This document shows positions 49,842-58,416 of a stretch of 62,402 nucleotides of DNA, one piece after another (positions within the stretch are counted from its first letter, which is position 1; every line of letters begins with the position of its first letter). Under the pieces are notes generated by a model, which was given only the letters and a program-made list of their open reading frames with translations, made no database searches and was not told where the DNA came from. The translations under genes were made by a program, and so were the position numbers. Origin of the DNA: a virus (Duplodnaviria; Heunggongvirae; Uroviricota; Caudoviricetes); IMG/VR virus record IMGVR_UViG_3300029219_000144; one strand, given 5' to 3'.

Positions 49842-50111
49842 CTACTCCATGCTTTTCAGACGATCAGCAGCTCGTTTCAGCTTGTCGTTCGGTGCCGGAG
49901 GATTGCTTATAGCGTCCATAACCAGATTCCAGGATTCTTCATTCAGAACTAGTCTACGGTGTTGCTCTATAACTTTCACGGCACGTTCAGATGCACTGCT
50001 AACCATAAACTGAGTAATGCTCTGGTTAGACATTGCGGCAGCTTCCTCGATGATGCTTTTATCGTCATCGGTTAATCTCAAATCGATGCGCTGCTTTTTT
50101 AGTGCTGACAT
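49842..50111 (-). CDS. DUF1778-family antitoxin (TacA/KacA-like)
   Basis: 89-aa protein from MSALKKQRIDLRLTDDDKSIIEEAA, RBS AGGAGG 5 nt upstream; ORF-track start 50150 is an upstream extension. Confidence 0.65.
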   Translation of the reverse strand: MSALKKQRIDLRLTDDDKSIIEEAAAMSNQSITQFMVSSASERAVKVIEQHRRLVLNEESWNLVMDAISNPPAPNDKLKRAADRLKSME

Positions 50112-50379
50112 GTATTCCTCCTGATGGCCGTGATGTAGGAAGGCCATCAATCTCCTCTGTTCAAACTGAGTTTTCGACTCAAAAATTACTTTAAAAGGCT
50201 ATAGCCCATTACGTGTGCATTATCAAATTGTGTACGGCATATCACCGTACTTGTAATATAGAGGTCATTGTTACTTTTTTCAACAGACAAATACAAGCTA
50301 TGATTGCCAATTGTTAATCACAACCTACCATTTAACCTTTACACCGCAGCCGTAGGCATTTAGGCTATATCACATATAA

Positions 50380-51098: not shown

Positions 51099-51457
51099 TG
51101 TCCATGAAAATGGGTGACCTAGCAAAGCGCAAAGAGCCTGATGCACCGGCTAAGAACACAACTCCTTTGCGCCAACCAGTCAGACCACAGGGACGCCCGA
51201 CTCGTGGCAAAGAGAAAATTAAAAGCCGCACAATGTCACTGGAAGACGAATACTTCGAACTGCTGGAGATGATGAAGTTCATCCCTCGCTTCGAGAAATT
51301 CACCCGTTCTGACGTGATTCGCGCAGCCATTTTCCATCTGGCAGAGAAGTCACCGCAGGAAATCGAGGACATCGTGAAACTTAACGAGGCAATCACAGCT
51401 GCCGATGTCACGATGCGTACCGATGAAATTAAACGAGAGTTGATGAAGAAAGGTTGA
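51098..51457 (+). CDS. small partition partner protein (ParG/RHH-like, 119 aa)
   Basis: Start overlaps the parA stop; basic N-terminal tail and helix-rich C-terminus. Confidence 0.5.
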   Translation: MSMKMGDLAKRKEPDAPAKNTTPLRQPVRPQGRPTRGKEKIKSRTMSLEDEYFELLEMMKFIPRFEKFTRSDVIRAAIFHLAEKSPQEIEDIVKLNEAITAADVTMRTDEIKRELMKKG

Positions 51458-51501
51458 TAAGAGAAGGCGTGATTAGACGCCTTCTCTTAAAAGGTATATT
51501 T

Positions 51502-52257
51502 ATGCTTTACAAATATGTTGGAAGTAGCGTCCCGGAAGACACAATAAAGTATTTAAAGTATTACTTAGAAGATGGGAAAATTCGAGCAACTCGTCCGAAT
51601 GATTTCAACGATCCTGCCGAGTTTAAAGTTAATTTTGATTATGATGCTGATATAGACGCCATTAAGAAAAGATTTTTTGAGCTTTGGCCTAATCATCACA
51701 ATGATGAATTTGAACGCTGGTTATTGAGTCAAACAGAACATAGTCGCAGTTTTGATAACTATATGATTAGAACAACTTTTCTGCAGTGTCGGGGAGTTAT
51801 TTGTTTGACAAAAAGACCAGATAATTATCTTATGTGGTCGCATTATGCGCATTCTCACTCTGGTTTTTGCATCGGATTTGATGATGGTTTTATAAATGCG
51901 TTTGATGATGGTTTTTTTGTTCGCGGTGAGGTCAAATATTCCTCTGATGTTCCGGTTGTAAATTTTTTTACCGACTCAGATAAAGAGATTGCAGCGGCTC
52001 TTTGCCTAAATAAAAGCGATGTCTGGGAATATGAAGAGGAGGTTAGAATCGTAACCGAGAATTGTGGCGTGAAATTATTTGATAAATCCTTAATTAAGGA
52101 AATAACAATAGGTTGTAAGGCTAGCAGTCAACTTCAAAATTATGTTCATCAACTATTTGATTCAGGTATCGAAATCTACAAAATGAAGTGCCCTCCAGGA
52201 TCGTATAAGCTGGAAAAAATAAGATTAGAGAAAGATACTGATTTTCTTGGATACTAG
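51502..52257 (+). CDS. DUF2971-like protein (252 aa from MLYKY; alternative start 51454)
   Basis: N-terminal LYKY, RPNDFNDPAEF and later SHYAHSHSGFCIGF motifs resemble the DUF2971 family as recalled; AT-rich gene. Confidence 0.5.
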   Translation: MLYKYVGSSVPEDTIKYLKYYLEDGKIRATRPNDFNDPAEFKVNFDYDADIDAIKKRFFELWPNHHNDEFERWLLSQTEHSRSFDNYMIRTTFLQCRGVICLTKRPDNYLMWSHYAHSHSGFCIGFDDGFINAFDDGFFVRGEVKYSSDVPVVNFFTDSDKEIAAALCLNKSDVWEYEEEVRIVTENCGVKLFDKSLIKEITIGCKASSQLQNYVHQLFDSGIEIYKMKCPPGSYKLEKIRLEKDTDFLGY

Positions 52258-54580: not shown

Positions 54581-54605
54581 AAGCGTGGAGAACACCTCCA
54601 CGCTT
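54581..54605. other. Perfect hairpin AAGCGTGGAG aacac CTCCACGCTT right after the helicase stop
   Basis: 10-bp stem; A-run upstream, no clear U-tract downstream. Confidence 0.5.
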
Positions 54606-54656
54606 GATTCATTGGTGAAACAACTTTTCTTTTGCCAAACCACAAAAGAAAAACAC

Positions 54657-55838
54657 ATGAGCCTTTATGTTATATCAACATTTAGGTTGGTCACAATATT
54701 GCCTGTTAAAAGTGGAATTATCGTGAGCGAGCTGAAAGAGCTAATTACCGAATTAGATTTTGAACAATGGTTGGATACTGAAGGTATCGTTTATCGACGT
54801 GGAGGCGTGAGTACTCGCGGTCGTGAAGTGAATATCAAGGAGTGTCCGGTATGCGGCAGCTCCAACTGGAAGGTATATTTCAATCTGACCAGTGGCGTCG
54901 GTAAATGCTTCGCTGGTGATCATCCCGAAGAGATTCAGTTCAATAAGCTGGTCTTCCTCAAGCACTACAGCGGTAAATCACGACGACAGTTCGAGGAATA
55001 TGTGCAGAACGCTCTTCTTTCCCAGGGGTGGGCACCAAAGAAAGAAGAGATAGTGCTTGCAAGCACAGTCGAGTTAGAGGGACCAGTTGCACTCCCTCGT
55101 CATTACGATCTTCCTATAGATGGCCATCTTCCAGACTATCTGGTTGAACGAAATATATCGCCTGAAATGGCAAAGTATTTTGACCTACGATACTGCGTCG
55201 AAGGCAAGCACGCTTATGTAGATCCGTATACAGATCAGGTTAAAGGACAGATTTTCGATATGCGAATACTGATACCGGTTTACGATCTGGATGGGGTAAT
55301 GAAGACATTTCAAGGACGAGACATTACCGGTACAGCAGAACGCCGCTACCTCTTCCCTATGCAGCTGCCGGCGTCGGGTAAGTTTCTCTACAACGGCCAC
55401 AACGCAGTCGGGAAACAAACAGTCGTTGTGTGTGAAGGGGCATTTGACGTAATGGGCGTGAAGCGAGCCATCTTCGACGAAAAGACGCTGAGGGATTATG
55501 TAGAGCCAATTGGCACGTTCGGGATGCACTTGTCCGGAAATATGAATGAGGACGCTGAAGATCAGTTGGGCGCGTTCCTGACGCTCAAGGCGCGTGGATT
55601 ACGCAACGTCATCATGATGTGGGATAGCGAGAAGCAAGCGATCCGCAACACCATGTCGGCGGCCAAACGCCTCACCAGCATCGGACTAAATGTCAAAGTG
55701 GCCTGTCTGGGCGAAGAAGGTCTCGACCCCGGCGACGCGACGCCAGAGCAGATCCTCAAAGCCTATTATCGTGCCAAGCCTTACTCCAAACAGCTGGAGT
55801 TAAAATGCAAAGTGCTCGGTATCAAGTCACTCGTGTAG
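54657..55838 (+). CDS. DNA primase (zinc-finger plus TOPRIM)
   Basis: CPVCGSSNW..GKCFAGDH zinc-binding motif and TOPRIM-like VVVCEGAFDVMGV; start uncertain (ATG at 54657 lacks a good RBS). Confidence 0.6.
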   Translation: MSLYVISTFRLVTILPVKSGIIVSELKELITELDFEQWLDTEGIVYRRGGVSTRGREVNIKECPVCGSSNWKVYFNLTSGVGKCFAGDHPEEIQFNKLVFLKHYSGKSRRQFEEYVQNALLSQGWAPKKEEIVLASTVELEGPVALPRHYDLPIDGHLPDYLVERNISPEMAKYFDLRYCVEGKHAYVDPYTDQVKGQIFDMRILIPVYDLDGVMKTFQGRDITGTAERRYLFPMQLPASGKFLYNGHNAVGKQTVVVCEGAFDVMGVKRAIFDEKTLRDYVEPIGTFGMHLSGNMNEDAEDQLGAFLTLKARGLRNVIMMWDSEKQAIRNTMSAAKRLTSIGLNVKVACLGEEGLDPGDATPEQILKAYYRAKPYSKQLELKCKVLGIKSLV

Positions 55839-55839
55839 T

Positions 55840-56892
55840 TTAAGTTGTGGGAGACAGACGGTTCAGGACAAACGCTGCGATATTATTTAGTGCTATATTT
55901 AGCAAACTTGCATCATATGTTTGGTCGTTATCCTTAGGTTTAAAATTGCTGATACTGACTGTCTCACTGTGCTCATTTTCATAGAAACGTTTACTGCTTG
56001 AATCTAGGCGTTTGAGGACGTAAATTTGCCCAAATTCAATCCACTCACCTTCACCATTGAGTCCGCTCCCTGTTTTGACTGAGATGAAGTACTTTGCCAG
56101 CTTGGTTGTAATGCAGTCTTCATTTTTTTCTATGCAAACCTTAATGCCGGCGGCTTTCAAACTACGATAAATGCTGTTTGGATATGCCCCACTATAGATT
56201 TCGCTGCTTTCAATGATAATGACGTCGTATTCTTCCTTTGGCTCAATAGATAAAGCTTCAGGCTCCAAATCATCCTTGTGAAAAATAAATCCTAAAAGAC
56301 GCTCAAGTTCATCTGTTAATTTGAACATGGGGTTCGCTTGGATCTCGCCAGCCCTGTCTTCGTAGACGAGACCCGAGGTTATGAGCTTATTTAGCGATCT
56401 CAGAGCCATTCCACTTTTTTGTGATGTGAGGCTAACTTGGGCTAATACAGTTGATTTATAGCCTTTTATTGGCGAGCTTGTTGTGATGTAAAGTTTGCGC
56501 GCATATTCAATATCAAAGCAGGTTAACCCACTCAGTATGTGGATAAAAAATAGTTTTTCATCGTCGTTAAGGCTGCTGCGGGCTAGGCTTACCGTCAAGC
56601 GAATGTAGTATTCTGTTTTCTTGTCTTCATCATCAAGCACGAGCTTTTTGACTAACGCCGAAAAGTGTTCTCTTGAGATATCGACCTCATCGTCGCAAAT
56701 TTCACCAATGCCCATAATGTAACGGTTGAATCGATCACGACAAGTCGTCGCATTTATCTCTGAGAACAACGTGAACATTTTTTCCGCTGCCTCAATATGA
56801 GGTCCAACAAGCGGTATAGATTTGGCAAACGCCAAACCAGTTTCTTTCAATACCTTCCTGTGTTGCATCACGTTTTTGGACAACGTTGTCAT
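55840..56892 (-). CDS. hypothetical protein (350 aa), antisense to the flanking replication genes
   Basis: Long minus-strand ORF in an AT-rich block inside an otherwise plus-strand module. Confidence 0.6.
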   Translation of the reverse strand: MTTLSKNVMQHRKVLKETGLAFAKSIPLVGPHIEAAEKMFTLFSEINATTCRDRFNRYIMGIGEICDDEVDISREHFSALVKKLVLDDEDKKTEYYIRLTVSLARSSLNDDEKLFFIHILSGLTCFDIEYARKLYITTSSPIKGYKSTVLAQVSLTSQKSGMALRSLNKLITSGLVYEDRAGEIQANPMFKLTDELERLLGFIFHKDDLEPEALSIEPKEEYDVIIIESSEIYSGAYPNSIYRSLKAAGIKVCIEKNEDCITTKLAKYFISVKTGSGLNGEGEWIEFGQIYVLKRLDSSSKRFYENEHSETVSISNFKPKDNDQTYDASLLNIALNNIAAFVLNRLSPTT

Positions 56893-57012
56893 AGACCTAA
56901 GCCTTGTGTGTTTAACGTATTAGTTAAGTGAAATCATATAGAAGTGACCTGACAGCTACAACTGGACAAGATTAAGAGCATTTTTTATAAACGAAAATAA
57001 ACGCCTACATTG

Positions 57013-57032
57013 ATAAGTAGATACATACTTAT
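57013..57032. promoter_or_regulatory. Palindrome ATAAGTAgatacaTACTTAT upstream of the 57076 gene
   Basis: Perfect inverted repeat of the TAAGTA/TACTTA family. Confidence 0.45.
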
Positions 57033-57075: not shown

Positions 57076-57870
57076 ATGAAAGCAGATATTCAGAAGTCCG
57101 TTACCGAAATCATCGACAAATCAGGCGTAGAAATTGATACAGAAGAGCGCCAGAAGATTATCGATGAGGCGATCCAGACTGCGCTGGAGCACATCGCCAC
57201 GTCTGTGAGCACCGCACCTCTTTCGGAAGGCTCGAAATACATGCGGGTCTGGGTTCGTTTTGGGGAGTCCCCGGAGCTGCCTGGTGTTAAACAGAAACGC
57301 GCGGCACTCGTGGCGTTCACTCGCAAAATGAAGGACGCAACGGTCGAAGTACGCGCCGGTGCATGGTACGACGGTCGCGTTGTCTACACCAATCAGGCAG
57401 TGTGCGATGAAGGTGAACGGTTTGAGGAAATTGTCGACGCGACTCTTCGCGCGATCAAAGGCAGGGCTGGCGTAGAGGATGATCCTTCTATCGCGGCGTT
57501 CCTGAGCATTGTCGAACTGCCTGAAGTTACCGAACGCGTTACAGATCTGACAACCCCACCTGGTTTGCTGGAGTTGGTGGTCAGTGGCGATACCAAAAAA
57601 GCCGTTGAGCGCATTCGTGAGGTGGAATACGGCATCATCTGCGATATGTGCCGCAGCGACTTAGACCTGGTGCGCATCATTGTCGACGCGGGTCAGACAT
57701 GTGACGGTGTGCTCGCCAGTTTTGCAGGGCAGGTGGCACGCCTGGCCAACGAGCTGCCGATGATTAAACAGGAGGCAAAATCCTACGCCGTCCACCATGC
57801 CAACGATTTACTGGAACCATACCGGTTCGAAGCCGCTCAGGACAAAATGACTGGCTGGGCTACCTGGTAA
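57076..57870 (+). CDS. hypothetical protein (264 aa)
   Basis: ORF with GAGGAA RBS; terminator follows. Confidence 0.55.
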   Translation: MKADIQKSVTEIIDKSGVEIDTEERQKIIDEAIQTALEHIATSVSTAPLSEGSKYMRVWVRFGESPELPGVKQKRAALVAFTRKMKDATVEVRAGAWYDGRVVYTNQAVCDEGERFEEIVDATLRAIKGRAGVEDDPSIAAFLSIVELPEVTERVTDLTTPPGLLELVVSGDTKKAVERIREVEYGIICDMCRSDLDLVRIIVDAGQTCDGVLASFAGQVARLANELPMIKQEAKSYAVHHANDLLEPYRFEAAQDKMTGWATW

Positions 57871-57887
57871 GCCTTGATAAACCATTT

Positions 57888-57909
57888 AGCCCCCTGGTGG
57901 GGCTTTTTT
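57888..57909 (+). terminator. Rho-independent terminator
   Basis: AGCCCC ctggt GGGGCT followed by TTTTTT. Confidence 0.75.
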
Positions 57910-57951
57910 AAACTGCGCTCAATAAGTAAGTACACGACTACGGTTAGAAGC

Positions 57952-58416
57952 ATGTCCACAAAAACAGATTTGTCGAAAATCCCGTCTATCTCCGGAAACA
58001 ACGGTTATTCGCTGCGCTGTCAGGAAGTGAAGATCAACGGCCATGAGGCCCATTGCAGCTATACAGTCTGCCAGCACACCATCCTCGCCTACAAAGAGAA
58101 GCGTCTCCCAGCGACATCGTTCCAGTCCTGCGCTGCGGCCATTGCTGCTGGAAAATGCCAGGCGCTGAAGATGATGGTCGAAGAGATCCGCAAAGGCGAA
58201 CAGCTCTACTTCATCGATATGGCTACGCTTATCAAAGAAGTGGAAGAGCAAAACGACCACGCCAGAACGCTTACCCGGAAGCGCAACACCATGACGATTC
58301 AACGCACGAAGAAAACAGAACCAGCCAAACCCGAAACCACGTCCACCGATTCACTGGCGCCTGTCACTGACGTGTACGCGGCACTCATTGAAGAAGCAAC
58401 CAAAGAAAACACATGA
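57952..58416 (+). CDS. hypothetical protein (154 aa)
   Basis: Start set at MSTKTDLSK because the ORF-track start 57874 lies inside the terminator. Confidence 0.45.
   Translation: MSTKTDLSKIPSISGNNGYSLRCQEVKINGHEAHCSYTVCQHTILAYKEKRLPATSFQSCAAAIAAGKCQALKMMVEEIRKGEQLYFIDMATLIKEVEEQNDHARTLTRKRNTMTIQRTKKTEPAKPETTSTDSLAPVTDVYAALIEEATKENT

What the first reader, a model, noticed from the sequence alone, without database searches (positions are those of the whole stretch)
55840..56892. 350-aa antisense gene inserted in the replication module
A single long minus-strand ORF lies between the primase gene and the downstream plus-strand genes. It is AT-rich relative to its neighbours and has no motif I can assign. 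Isolated opposite-strand genes inside phage replication operons are frequently abortive-infection or other defence genes.
Basis: partly seen in the sequence, partly recalled or inferred. Interest (0 to 1): 0.6.

Follow-up and report, generated by a model that had tools for sequence, protein, structure and literature searches.

The report
Abi-alpha-like accessory gene in a phage-plasmid
The antisense ORF is a real, selected but dispensable cargo gene dropped into a variable slot of an SSU5/pHCM2-type phage-plasmid; it is a distant relative of the Abi-alpha abortive-infection family, which makes it a plausible but untested anti-phage gene that current defence catalogues miss.

Summary
Observation confirmed: a 350-aa minus-strand ORF (55840-56892) lies between the primase gene and the next plus-strand gene, at 41% GC against 48-51% in the flanks. 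The window is an E. coli SSU5/pHCM2-type phage-plasmid, and the protein is 100% identical to one on S. Typhi pHCM2. The gene is under purifying selection (dN/dS 0.05-0.36). It is a clean 1,175-bp indel (55826-57000): near-isogenic relatives have an 18-bp empty site, and other lineages carry unrelated antisense genes in the same slot. It is therefore accessory, not a replication gene. The AlphaFold models show a helical core, an acidic winged helix and a C-terminal alpha/beta domain with no enzymatic fold. The N-terminal half is nearly invariant, while the C-terminal half exists as anciently diverged, recombining types. The family (phrog_22938, about 90 representatives) sits on plasmids, ICEs, islands and phages, sometimes next to PLD or Mrr nuclease genes. 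It has no Pfam, PADLOC or reported DefenseFinder hit, but its core is remotely related to Abi_alpha/DUF4393 (hhalign E 1e-4 against 0.24-0.45 for reversed controls; 12 distinct sub-threshold Pfam hits among the members scanned, in register in the three examined). Genuine Abi_alpha genes are likewise lone antisense genes in phage replication modules. A defence role is plausible (about 0.45) and untested.

The parts
55840..56892 (-). CDS of the 350-aa accessory protein (stop codon 55840-55842). It is 100% identical to the pHCM2 (NC_003385.1) protein and an ortholog of SSU5_041; it belongs to phrog_22938.
   Evidence: dN/dS 0.05-0.36
56755..56892 (-). aa 1-46: N-terminal helices modelled at low confidence. 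The start MTTLSK is conserved, and there is a P27..G30 motif.
56473..56754 (-). aa 47-140: conserved helical core. It carries the family-wide polar cluster R54, Y58, D87, E89, K92, Y96 and R132, Y135. This is the region that aligns to Abi_alpha.
   Evidence: pLDDT >90; conservation; Abi_alpha register
56248..56472 (-). aa 141-215: winged helix (H148-156, H161-172, hairpin 176-192) plus linker helices. L170, G174 and L175 are nearly invariant; the segment is acidic (pI 5.75).
55843..56247 (-). aa 216-350: variable C-terminal alpha/beta domain with a fold like the class II aaRS anticodon-binding domain, CadC periplasmic domain, HpaA, LptE and PelC. It exists as several anciently diverged, recombining types.
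55826..57000 (.). The indel itself: 1,175 bp holding the gene plus about 110 bp of its own upstream DNA. In the near-isogenic empty site it is replaced by 18 bp. No target-site duplication was seen.
56933..56961 (-). Candidate sigma-70 promoter of the gene, found by eye: -35 TTGTAG (56961-56956), 17-nt spacer, -10 TATGAT (56938-56933). The -10 block is conserved among carriers. It is weak and was not reported by the consensus scan.
   Evidence: sequence, intergenic alignment; the scan found nothing here. Inferred only.
57013..57032 (+). Right-hand landmark, not part of the insert: the palindrome ATAAGTA-N6-TACTTAT within the conserved promoter/operator block of the downstream 264-aa gene. It is present in both carriers and empty sites.
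57076..58416 (+). The adjacent 264-aa (phrog_4248) and 180-aa (phrog_5055) genes. They travel with the target as a roughly 2.6-kb recombination block (55826 to about 58485). Every carrier examined has this allele (93-98% aa), but the allele also occurs without the target.

Best explanation
The ORF is a horizontally exchanged accessory ('moron') gene occupying a variable cargo slot between the primase gene and the next operon of an SSU5/pHCM2-type phage-plasmid. It encodes a soluble, acidic, three-part protein: a conserved helical core and a winged helix, which together are remotely homologous to the Abi_alpha (DUF4393) abortive-infection family, followed by a swappable C-terminal alpha/beta domain. 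Shown here: the gene is real and under purifying selection; it is dispensable and polymorphic; it belongs to a family carried by mobile elements; its core resembles Abi_alpha; and its C-terminal domain is modular. Inferred: it is transcribed from its own weak promoter while the element resides as a plasmid-prophage, and it protects the host and element against superinfecting phages or rival mobile elements. In that model the invariant core carries out the common function, through an action that is unknown as it is for Abi-alpha itself. The variable C-terminal domain would set what is recognised. In other lineages the same core is paired with PLD- or Mrr-type nuclease genes, which suggests it can also act as a sensor or adaptor for a separate effector.
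For: Accessory status: the slot is empty in Cyrano and PhiR41_1, in at least 124 Escherichia/Shigella plasmids, and on the same 264-aa-gene allele background in E. hormaechei. Unrelated antisense cargo occupies the same slot in 225 Klebsiella plasmids (hhalign probability 0.15) and in Y. pestis pMT (DUF4145). Only about 82 of about 750 SSU5-like plasmids carry the gene. Truncated copies exist (H70, P0102). Foreign composition. Selection. A second variable slot in the same module holds defence-type cargo: PDC-S31/DUF2971 here (E 3e-41) and a PD-T4-3-like gene in PhiR41_1 (E 1.6e-23). Abi_alpha link: sub-threshold PF14337 hits in 4/46 and 8/33 scanned members of two overlapping sets (12 distinct proteins). 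The three located hits are in the same register: P0065 86-190 to model 32-147 at 26.4 bits, P0071 97-196 to 38-149, P0082 124-204 to 65-153. hhalign of the family against a 9-sequence profile of genuine DUF4393 phage proteins gives E 1.1e-4 over 136 columns (A5) and 7.3e-5 (A4), against E 0.24-0.45 for reversed controls. The motif DE..K...Y..L aligns to ee..R...F..L. Shared posture: the phiNM1 DUF4393 gene and its homologs in StauST398-1, IPP23, StB20-like, Jekyll and phi4B1 are lone opposite-strand genes beside replication or antirepressor genes. The phiNM1 protein is the most abundant prophage protein in lysogens (bioRxiv 10.1101/2025.10.23.684294). Abi-alpha confers abortive infection (PMC6356687). 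Family contexts: plasmids, ICEs, islands and phages. A PLDc_2 nuclease gene lies 14 bp upstream in one synteny represented by two family members, an Mrr_cat gene lies 165 bp downstream in Geotalea, an AbiU-like AIPR gene is adjacent in Klebsiella, and TA systems are nearby.
Against: There is no phenotype or expression data. The window protein does not hit PF14337, and the best family member scores 26.4 bits against a 29-bit cutoff. hhalign probability is only 56-62%, and the close subfamily alone gives E 0.13. There is no PADLOC hit, and DefenseFinder is reported to find nothing in pHCM2-like elements (bioRxiv 10.1101/2025.09.12.675607). No effector-type fold (nuclease, TIR, pore, protease and the like) was recognised. 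Most family contexts show a solo gene among maintenance genes (KfrA, ParM/StbB, ArdC), which fits a plasmid-biology role equally well. Abi-alpha's own mechanism is unknown, so the homology predicts a phenotype rather than a mechanism.
Confidence: 0.45

Rival explanations
1. It is a plasmid maintenance or segregation accessory protein: a Kfr-type partner or a winged-helix adaptor acting on the partition or replication machinery of low-copy mobile elements.
Against: Close relatives lack it, and carriers and non-carriers share near-identical partition and replication genes. The KfrA association appears in only 2 of 15 contexts. The known KfrA partner KfrC has a phosphoribosyltransferase-type N-terminal domain (PMC8124265), and no PF00156 hit occurs in the family. 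This role does not explain the swapped C-terminal types or the nuclease neighbours.
Confidence: 0.2
2. It is a transcription factor, with a MarR-like winged helix and a ligand-sensing C-terminal domain, that regulates the divergent 264-aa operon or the lysis-lysogeny decision.
Against: The same 264-aa allele and the same palindrome/promoter occur with an empty slot and in Cyrano, so that operon does not need this gene. The winged-helix segment is acidic (pI 5.75), and no basic residue of the recognition helix is conserved across the family. The family occurs on many elements that lack this operon.
Confidence: 0.12
3. It is an anti-defence or establishment gene that helps the element survive host immunity on entry.
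For: An ArdC-type anti-restriction gene lies 0.6-1 kb downstream of the family gene in two conjugative or integrative elements. A Dam methyltransferase gene lies upstream in L022. Variable cargo slots also carry anti-defence genes in phages (general knowledge).
Against: There is no similarity to any known anti-defence protein. The antisense orientation with its own promoter inside an early operon, together with the Abi_alpha homology, points to lysogen-expressed functions rather than early-entry ones. Partnering with PLD or Mrr nuclease genes is typical of defence, not anti-defence.
Confidence: 0.08
4. It is a conserved replication protein of the phage-plasmid.
Against: It is absent from isolated phages Cyrano and PhiR41_1 and from several hundred related plasmids. 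There is no hit to any replication family.
Confidence: 0.02

Closest known systems
Abi-alpha (EF2833 of E. faecalis V583 prophage 6; Pfam Abi_alpha PF14337 / DUF4393; DefenseFinder 'AbiAlpha'), including phiNM1/80alpha A0EWI8
   Same: The helical core plus winged-helix region aligns: family residues about 47-182 to phiNM1 42-192, hhalign E 1e-4, with in-register sub-threshold Pfam hits. Both are single genes without an obvious effector domain. Both are lone opposite-strand genes inside the early/replication module of a temperate element. Both are carried by prophage-type elements.
   Different: The target fails the Pfam gathering score. It is about 70-90 aa longer because of an extra, variable C-terminal alpha/beta domain. 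It occurs in Gram-negative plasmids, ICEs and phage-plasmids rather than mainly Firmicutes prophages. Its hallmark residues are D87/E89/K92/Y96, where Abi_alpha has E/R/F equivalents. No phenotype has been shown.
Defence-type cargo in variable slots of SSU5-group phage-plasmids (PD-T4-3, PrrC, PD-T7-5 and RM reported in E. coli/Shigella elements; PDC-S31/DUF2971)
   Same: It occupies a discrete slot between conserved backbone genes, with presence, absence and replacement polymorphism. The neighbouring slot holds PDC-S31 in this window and a PD-T4-3-like gene in PhiR41_1 (bioRxiv 10.1101/2025.09.12.675607).
   Different: Those genes are catalogued defence genes or candidates; this family is in no catalogue. 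No recognised defence gene was found among the alternative cargo of this particular slot (a 388-aa Klebsiella gene with no hits, and a DUF4145 gene).
MarR/SlyA-type winged-helix regulators
   Same: The fold of residues about 148-192 matches.
   Different: The segment is acidic, it is embedded between a helical core and an alpha/beta domain, and it lacks the MarR dimerisation architecture. DNA binding is doubtful.
Two-gene nuclease systems (type IV restriction-like PLD or Mrr nuclease plus an accessory protein)
   Same: Distant family members sit 14 bp downstream of a PLDc_2/NgoFVII-like gene or 165 bp upstream of an Mrr_cat gene on the same strand.
   Different: The window gene has no nuclease partner. 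Neither pairing matches a named PADLOC system.

Membership tests
Pfam Abi_alpha (PF14337, DUF4393) | Whole-protein score at or above the curated gathering threshold (29 bits) | tested here: not met
   The window protein gives no hit. The best family member, P0065, scores 26.4 bits (E 8.1e-6); others score 15.6 and 17.5 bits. Hits at E<=0.01 occur in 4/46 and 8/33 members of two overlapping sets, 12 distinct proteins, all below the cutoff.
Pfam Abi_alpha (PF14337, DUF4393) | Profile-level homology to genuine DUF4393 proteins | tested here: inconclusive
   hhalign of A5 against 9 phage DUF4393 proteins gives probability 56%, E 1.1e-4, 136 columns; A4 gives 62.5%, E 7.3e-5; the close subfamily A2 alone gives E 0.13; reversed controls give E 0.24-0.45. 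This is supportive but not decisive.
Pfam Abi_alpha (PF14337, DUF4393) | Architecture: single-domain protein of about 260-300 aa | tested here: not met
   The target is 350 aa, with an additional C-terminal alpha/beta domain at residues 216-350. Eight full-length DUF4393 proteins used here are 257-301 aa; the ninth was a 163-aa partial.
Pfam Abi_alpha (PF14337, DUF4393) | Lone gene on the opposite strand within the early/replication region of a temperate element | tested here: met
   Target. phiNM1, StauST398-1, IPP23, StB20-like, Jekyll and phi4B1.
Pfam Abi_alpha (PF14337, DUF4393) | Abortive-infection phenotype (reduced plating efficiency with premature lysis or death of infected cells) | not testable with these tools
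   This needs phage challenge experiments. The phenotype is defined in PMC6356687.
phrog_22938 (unknown function) | Significant match to the PHROG profile over its full length | tested here: met
   E 5.7e-218 over residues 15-350 against profile 1-336/336. All 76 family representatives match.
Catalogued defence systems (PADLOC-DB v2; DefenseFinder) | Match to any system model | tested here: not met
   PADLOC gives no hit for the target, and only four isolated hits at E>1e-3 among 46 members. For DefenseFinder, the literature reports no systems in pHCM2-like S. Typhi elements (bioRxiv 10.1101/2025.09.12.675607); it was not run here.
MarR-type winged-helix transcription factors | Winged-helix fold | tested here: met
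MarR-type winged-helix transcription factors | Basic, conserved DNA-recognition surface | tested here: not met
   The winged-helix segment has pI 5.75, and only the hydrophobic or glycine positions L170, G174 and L175 are conserved.
KfrC (partner of KfrA on IncU/IncP plasmids) | N-terminal phosphoribosyltransferase-type domain (PF00156-like), per PMC8124265 | tested here: not met
   There is no PF00156 hit in the target or in the family members scanned. The models show a helical core and a winged helix instead. No direct sequence comparison with KfrC was run.
Core replication proteins of SSU5-type phage-plasmids | Presence in all functional relatives | tested here: not met
   It is absent from Cyrano, PhiR41_1, pFJMB80067_1 and pJN2-26. 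About 82 of about 750 related plasmids carry it.

The most novel reading that the evidence does not exclude
This family is a previously unrecognised Gram-negative, mobile-element branch of the Abi-alpha superfamily with a modular design. An invariant helical/winged-helix core, carrying the conserved D-E-K-Y/R-Y polar cluster, is the active part. A cassette-like C-terminal domain, with a fold like RNA- or ligand-binding anticodon-binding domains, is exchanged by recombination to retarget recognition. The core works either alone or as the sensor or adaptor for PLD or Mrr nucleases. If so, it would be the first defence determinant of pHCM2-type phage-plasmids of S. Typhi, and it would give a tractable E. 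coli/Salmonella model for working out how Abi-alpha proteins act.
Probability: 0.3. Interest if true: 0.65.

Novelty: new variant of a known kind. Interest (0 to 1): 0.45.

Why it matters
AbiAlpha is reported as the second most common defence type in sequenced phage genomes, yet its mechanism is unknown, and the examples cited or retrieved here come almost entirely from Gram-positive prophages. A distant, domain-extended relative on E. coli and Salmonella phage-plasmids would move the problem into the best genetic systems available. It would also offer natural C-terminal domain swaps as ready-made specificity experiments. In addition, pHCM2-like elements of S. Typhi and related SSU5-group plasmids are clinically widespread and are currently scored as carrying no defence system. 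If this gene excludes phages or rival elements, that view changes, as do predictions for phage therapy and plasmid ecology in these hosts. If it proves to be a maintenance factor, it still defines an uncharacterised family of about 90 representatives shared by plasmids, ICEs and phages.

Tried and rejected
1. Direct annotation: Pfam, NCBIfam, PADLOC and PDB sequence searches on the target gave nothing significant.
3. Is the Klebsiella 388-aa gene in the same slot a diverged homolog? Rejected (hhalign probability 0.15).
4. Is the target functionally coupled to the 264-aa neighbour because their alleles co-vary? Weakened: 192 plasmids carry that allele but only about 82 carry the target, and one of them has an empty slot.
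5. Recent positive selection on the C-terminal half: not supported. dN/dS is 0.12-0.36, and dS is saturated between types. The pattern reflects old modules plus recombination.
6. KfrC identity: rejected on domain content (PMC8124265).
8. PD-(D/E)xK reading of the DDEDKK motif: rejected, because the motif lies in a loop and helix of an all-alpha domain.
10. The promoter/terminator scan found nothing convincing for the gene. The promoter I give was found by eye.
11. No Rfam family matches the region.
Full report
THE OBSERVATION. It is convergent with the primase gene (54585..55838; PHROG 'DNA primase' E 1.9e-65, with DnaG/Toprim matches at or just below the Pfam cutoffs), and one nucleotide separates the two stop codons. 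Its start is 183 bp from the divergent 264-aa gene at 57076..57870. It is AT-rich: the CDS is 0.414 GC, against 0.481 and 0.507 in the flanking gene blocks, and GC3 is 0.44 against 0.53 and 0.60. Nothing of 50 aa or more overlaps it on the other strand, and no Rfam family matches the region. Pfam, NCBIfam, PADLOC and PDB sequence searches give no significant hit. The only match is phrog_22938, of unknown function (E 5.7e-218).

WHERE THE WINDOW COMES FROM. The region matches Salmonella phage SSU5 and the E. coli phages Cyrano and PhiR41_1. The closest plasmid record is E. coli NZ_CP103696.1 (98.9%). The target protein is 100% identical to one encoded on S. Typhi CT18 plasmid pHCM2 (NC_003385.1) and on 43 other plasmids. 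The window is therefore an SSU5/pHCM2-type phage-plasmid.

A REAL GENE, BUT A DISPENSABLE ONE. Twelve close homolog clusters (52-99% identity) exist, nearly all on contigs of about 100 kb from Enterobacteriaceae, and the start MTTLSK is conserved. Pairwise dN/dS is 0.05-0.17 for residues 1-180 and 0.12-0.36 for residues 181-350, so both halves are under purifying selection.

The slot is polymorphic:
- In phages Cyrano and PhiR41_1, the primase gene is followed after 75 bp by the next plus-strand gene. That empty junction occurs at 80% coverage or more in 124 Escherichia/Shigella plasmids.
- In Klebsiella phage pJN2-26 and 225 Klebsiella plasmids, the slot holds a 388-aa antisense gene. It is unrelated to the target (hhalign probability 0.15) and is itself 55-100% variable.
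- In Y. pestis pMT, a DUF4145 gene lies antisense just upstream of the 264-aa gene; the primase side there is replaced by IS elements.
- About 82 of the roughly 750 plasmids with an SSU5-type primase carry a full-length copy of the target family. Truncated copies also exist (H70, P0102).

The cleanest comparison is E. hormaechei pFJMB80067_1. It has a 99.2%-identical 264-aa gene and an empty slot. Against it, window 55826-57000 (1,175 bp) replaces 18 bp, with no target-site duplication. The right boundary lies just before a palindrome-containing promoter block of the 264-aa gene (ATAAGTA-N6-TACTTAT, 57013-57032), which is conserved in carriers and empty sites alike. The insert therefore brings the gene and about 110 bp of its own upstream DNA. 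By eye there is a weak candidate promoter in that DNA (-35 TTGTAG, 17 nt, -10 TATGAT; 56961-56933), and its -10 block is conserved among carriers. The consensus scan did not report it, so this is inference.

LINKAGE WITH THE NEIGHBOURS. The window's helicase is 100% identical to Cyrano's, and its primase and ligase are 96% identical. Its 264-aa and 180-aa genes, however, are only 43% and 70% identical to Cyrano's, while they are 93-98% identical to those of every carrier examined. The target therefore moves as part of a block of about 2.6 kb (55826 to about 58485). The linkage runs one way: 192 plasmids have the window-type 264-aa allele, only about 82 have the target, and that allele occurs with an empty slot. 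I read this as shared recombination history, not functional dependence.

THE PROTEIN. AlphaFold2 gave pLDDT 76 and pTM 0.72 for the whole protein, and pLDDT 84.7 for residues 1-215 with a 76-sequence alignment. The models show four parts:
- Poorly defined N-terminal helices (1-46).
- A confident helical core (47-140).
- A winged helix (about 148-192) with linker helices.
- An alpha/beta domain (216-350).

Across 76 family representatives, conservation concentrates in R54, Y/F58, D87, E89, K92, Y96, L99, L123, R132 and Y135 in the core, and in L170, G174 and L175 in the winged helix. No basic residue of the recognition helix is conserved. This argues against a classical repressor.

MODULARITY. 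Among close homologs the N-half is 73-92% identical, but the C-half falls into types that are 27-69% identical, with synonymous sites saturated between them. At the nucleotide level, 55844-56359 cannot be aligned with SSU5 although the rest of the block is 85-89% identical. The E. ludwigii copy has an N-half 92% identical to the window's but a C-half only 36% identical, nearer the SSU5 type at 50%. That is a recombinant. The C-terminal domain therefore behaves as an exchangeable cassette on an invariant core.

THE WIDER FAMILY. An exhaustive profile search found 90 representatives at the 50% clustering level, mostly 340-390 aa. All 76 that were tested fall into phrog_22938. Tblastn also finds 40%-identical copies on Klebsiella IncFIA/IncR plasmids and 29%-identical copies on ETEC plasmids such as p948.

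I looked at fifteen genomic contexts. At least eleven are recognisably mobile elements:
- Conjugative or integrative elements with Tra genes, integrases and ArdC.
- Plasmids with Rep3, ParM/StbB and KfrA.
- A phage with a tail spike gene.
- Islands with TacAT, CcdAB or RelE/ParE toxin-antitoxin pairs.

The gene is usually solo. In one synteny represented by two family members (P0103, P0064) it lies 14 bp downstream of a PLDc_2/NgoFVII-like nuclease gene. That nuclease gives PADLOC hits to type IV REase, DrmC, ZacB and PbeA models. In Geotalea it lies 165 bp upstream of an Mrr_cat gene. On the Klebsiella plasmid it overlaps a KfrA_N gene and is followed by an AbiU-like AIPR gene.

THE LINK TO ABI-ALPHA. 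The window protein does not hit Pfam Abi_alpha (PF14337/DUF4393). Sub-threshold hits at E 0.01 or better appeared in 4 of 46 and 8 of 33 scanned members of two overlapping sets (12 distinct proteins). The best is P0065 at 26.4 bits, against a 29-bit cutoff. The three hits I could locate are in the same register: family positions of about 77-189 align to model positions of about 32-153.

For an independent test I retrieved genuine DUF4393 proteins. The first was phiNM1 ABF73047, which I identify as UniProt A0EWI8 from its accession order and antisense orientation; RefSeq labels the identical protein in 80alpha and others as DUF4393. The other eight were homologs from Staphylococcus, Streptococcus, Bacillus, Moraxella and Roseburia phages. 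The hhalign results were:
- Family alignment A5 against the nine-sequence Abi_alpha profile: E 1.1e-4, probability 56%, 136 columns (family 47-182 aligned to phiNM1 42-192).
- Divergent subset A4: E 7.3e-5, probability 62.5%.
- Close subfamily A2 alone: E 0.13.
- Reversed-sequence controls: E 0.24-0.45.
- A5 against the single phiNM1 sequence: E 1.3e-3.

The family hallmark DE..K...Y..L aligns with ee..R...F..L in Abi_alpha. I conclude that the core is probably, but not certainly, a remote homolog of Abi_alpha. The protein is not a member by Pfam's criterion, and it has an extra C-terminal domain.

Abi-alpha was shown to cause abortive infection with premature lysis in E. faecalis, by an unknown mechanism (PMC6356687). 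AbiAlpha is reported as the second most common defence type in phage genomes (bioRxiv 10.64898/2026.05.06.722914). In phiNM1 lysogens the DUF4393 protein is the most abundant prophage protein and is one of the antisense-encoded, lysogen-expressed genes (bioRxiv 10.1101/2025.10.23.684294). The genuine Abi_alpha genes in phiNM1, StauST398-1, IPP23, StB20-like, Jekyll and phi4B1 are also lone opposite-strand genes next to replication or antirepressor genes. That is the same posture as the target.

HOW IT MOST LIKELY WORKS. The following are shown: this is an accessory, selected, horizontally exchanged gene; it is made of an invariant core plus an exchangeable C-terminal binding-type domain; it belongs to a family carried by mobile elements; and its core resembles Abi_alpha. 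The following are inferred, with about 0.45 confidence. The gene is expressed from its own promoter in the plasmid-prophage state and excludes superinfecting phages or rival elements. The C-terminal domain determines what is sensed, and the core executes or relays the response, alone here or to a PLD or Mrr nuclease in other lineages.

Two further observations support a defence reading. The adjacent variable slot of the same module carries PDC-S31/DUF2971 in this window (E 3e-41) and a PD-T4-3-like GIY-YIG gene in PhiR41_1 (E 1.6e-23). A published survey reports PD-T4-3, PrrC, PD-T7-5 and RM systems in E. coli and Shigella SSU5-group elements, but none in pHCM2-like ones (bioRxiv 10.1101/2025.09.12.675607).

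Several points count against it. There is no phenotype, no catalogue hit and no recognisable effector, and the homology statistics are only moderate.

The rivals are:
- A maintenance or segregation accessory protein (0.2), suggested by the KfrA and ParM neighbours and by kleisin-like winged helices.
- A MarR-like regulator of the divergent operon (0.12), weakened by the acidic winged helix and by the occurrence of the same operon allele with an empty slot.
- An anti-defence gene (0.08).
- A replication protein (0.02), effectively refuted by the empty-site relatives.

NOVELTY AND VERDICT. The gene has long been annotated as a hypothetical protein (in pHCM2, and as SSU5_041), and its family exists as an unannotated PHROG. 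New here are its definition as slot cargo, its three-part architecture with a cassette-like C-terminus, its wide distribution on mobile elements with occasional nuclease partners, and its probable remote relationship to Abi_alpha. I rate it as a new variant of a known kind and give it moderate interest (0.45). The finding is ordinary in type, an accessory gene in a phage variable region, but it is a specific and testable defence candidate in a clinically relevant group of elements that current tools score as having no defence system.

Noticed in passing
window 51454-52257 (+): A 267-aa DUF2971 protein (Pfam E 2.6e-10) matching the PADLOC candidate PDC-S31 (E 3e-41) sits in a second variable slot, between the ParA/ParB-like genes and the replication genes. 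In PhiR41_1 the same slot holds a minus-strand PD-T4-3-like GIY-YIG gene (L003 4398-5165, E 1.6e-23), and pJN2-26 has three other genes there. This looks like a defence-cargo hotspot.
   Followed up: partly
window 57076-58416 (+): The 264-aa (phrog_4248) and 180-aa (phrog_5055) 'backbone' genes are extraordinarily allelic. They are 43-51% and 64-70% identical between elements whose helicase, primase and ligase are 84-100% identical, and PLSDB shows discrete identity classes (>=90%, about 88%, about 75%, about 51%, about 42%). Their function is unknown, and no explanation was found for this diversification.
   Followed up: partly
window 57013-57032 (+): A perfect palindrome, ATAAGTA-N6-TACTTAT, lies inside a promoter-like block (…CTGTAAGAATA…) upstream of the 264-aa gene. 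It is conserved across carriers, empty-site phages and divergent alleles, so it is probably an operator for an unidentified regulator.
   Followed up: no
window 61641-62345 (-), running toward the window end: A 234-aa ORF matches only the C-terminal third of PADLOC HerA (positions 467-685 of 686, E 8.9e-112). It is either a truncated or frameshifted HerA-type defence ATPase, or an intact gene interrupted near the window edge. Any partner gene would lie outside the window.
   Followed up: no
window 61363-61437 (+): A tRNA-Asn (GTT) gene. pJN2-26 has a tRNA-Asn at the equivalent position.
   Followed up: no
window 49842-50150 (-): The sequence of this 102-aa ORF looks like a DUF1778/TacA-type antitoxin (recalled from memory, not tested). 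A GNAT toxin partner would be expected just downstream on the minus strand.
   Followed up: no
L004 8885-10051 (-) (Klebsiella phage pJN2-26) and 225 Klebsiella plasmids: The alternative cargo of the same slot is a 388-aa protein with no Pfam, NCBIfam or PADLOC hit. It is itself 55-100% variable among plasmids, making it a second uncharacterised, fast-diversifying antisense gene worth the same treatment.
   Followed up: partly
L031 3526-4248 (-) (Y. pestis pMT): pMT carries the window-type 264-aa allele (97%), with a DUF4145 gene lying antisense just upstream of it and IS elements replacing the primase side. A DUF4145 gene also lies next to a family member on an unrelated plasmid (L020).
   Followed up: no
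L013-L015, L010 (metagenomic contigs): There is a conserved three-gene arrangement: a PLDc_2 nuclease gene, the family gene 14 bp downstream, and a convergent 488-aa CoiA_N-like gene. It lies near MqsA-like/ImmA-like and N6-methyltransferase genes and may be an uncatalogued multi-gene defence system.
   Followed up: partly
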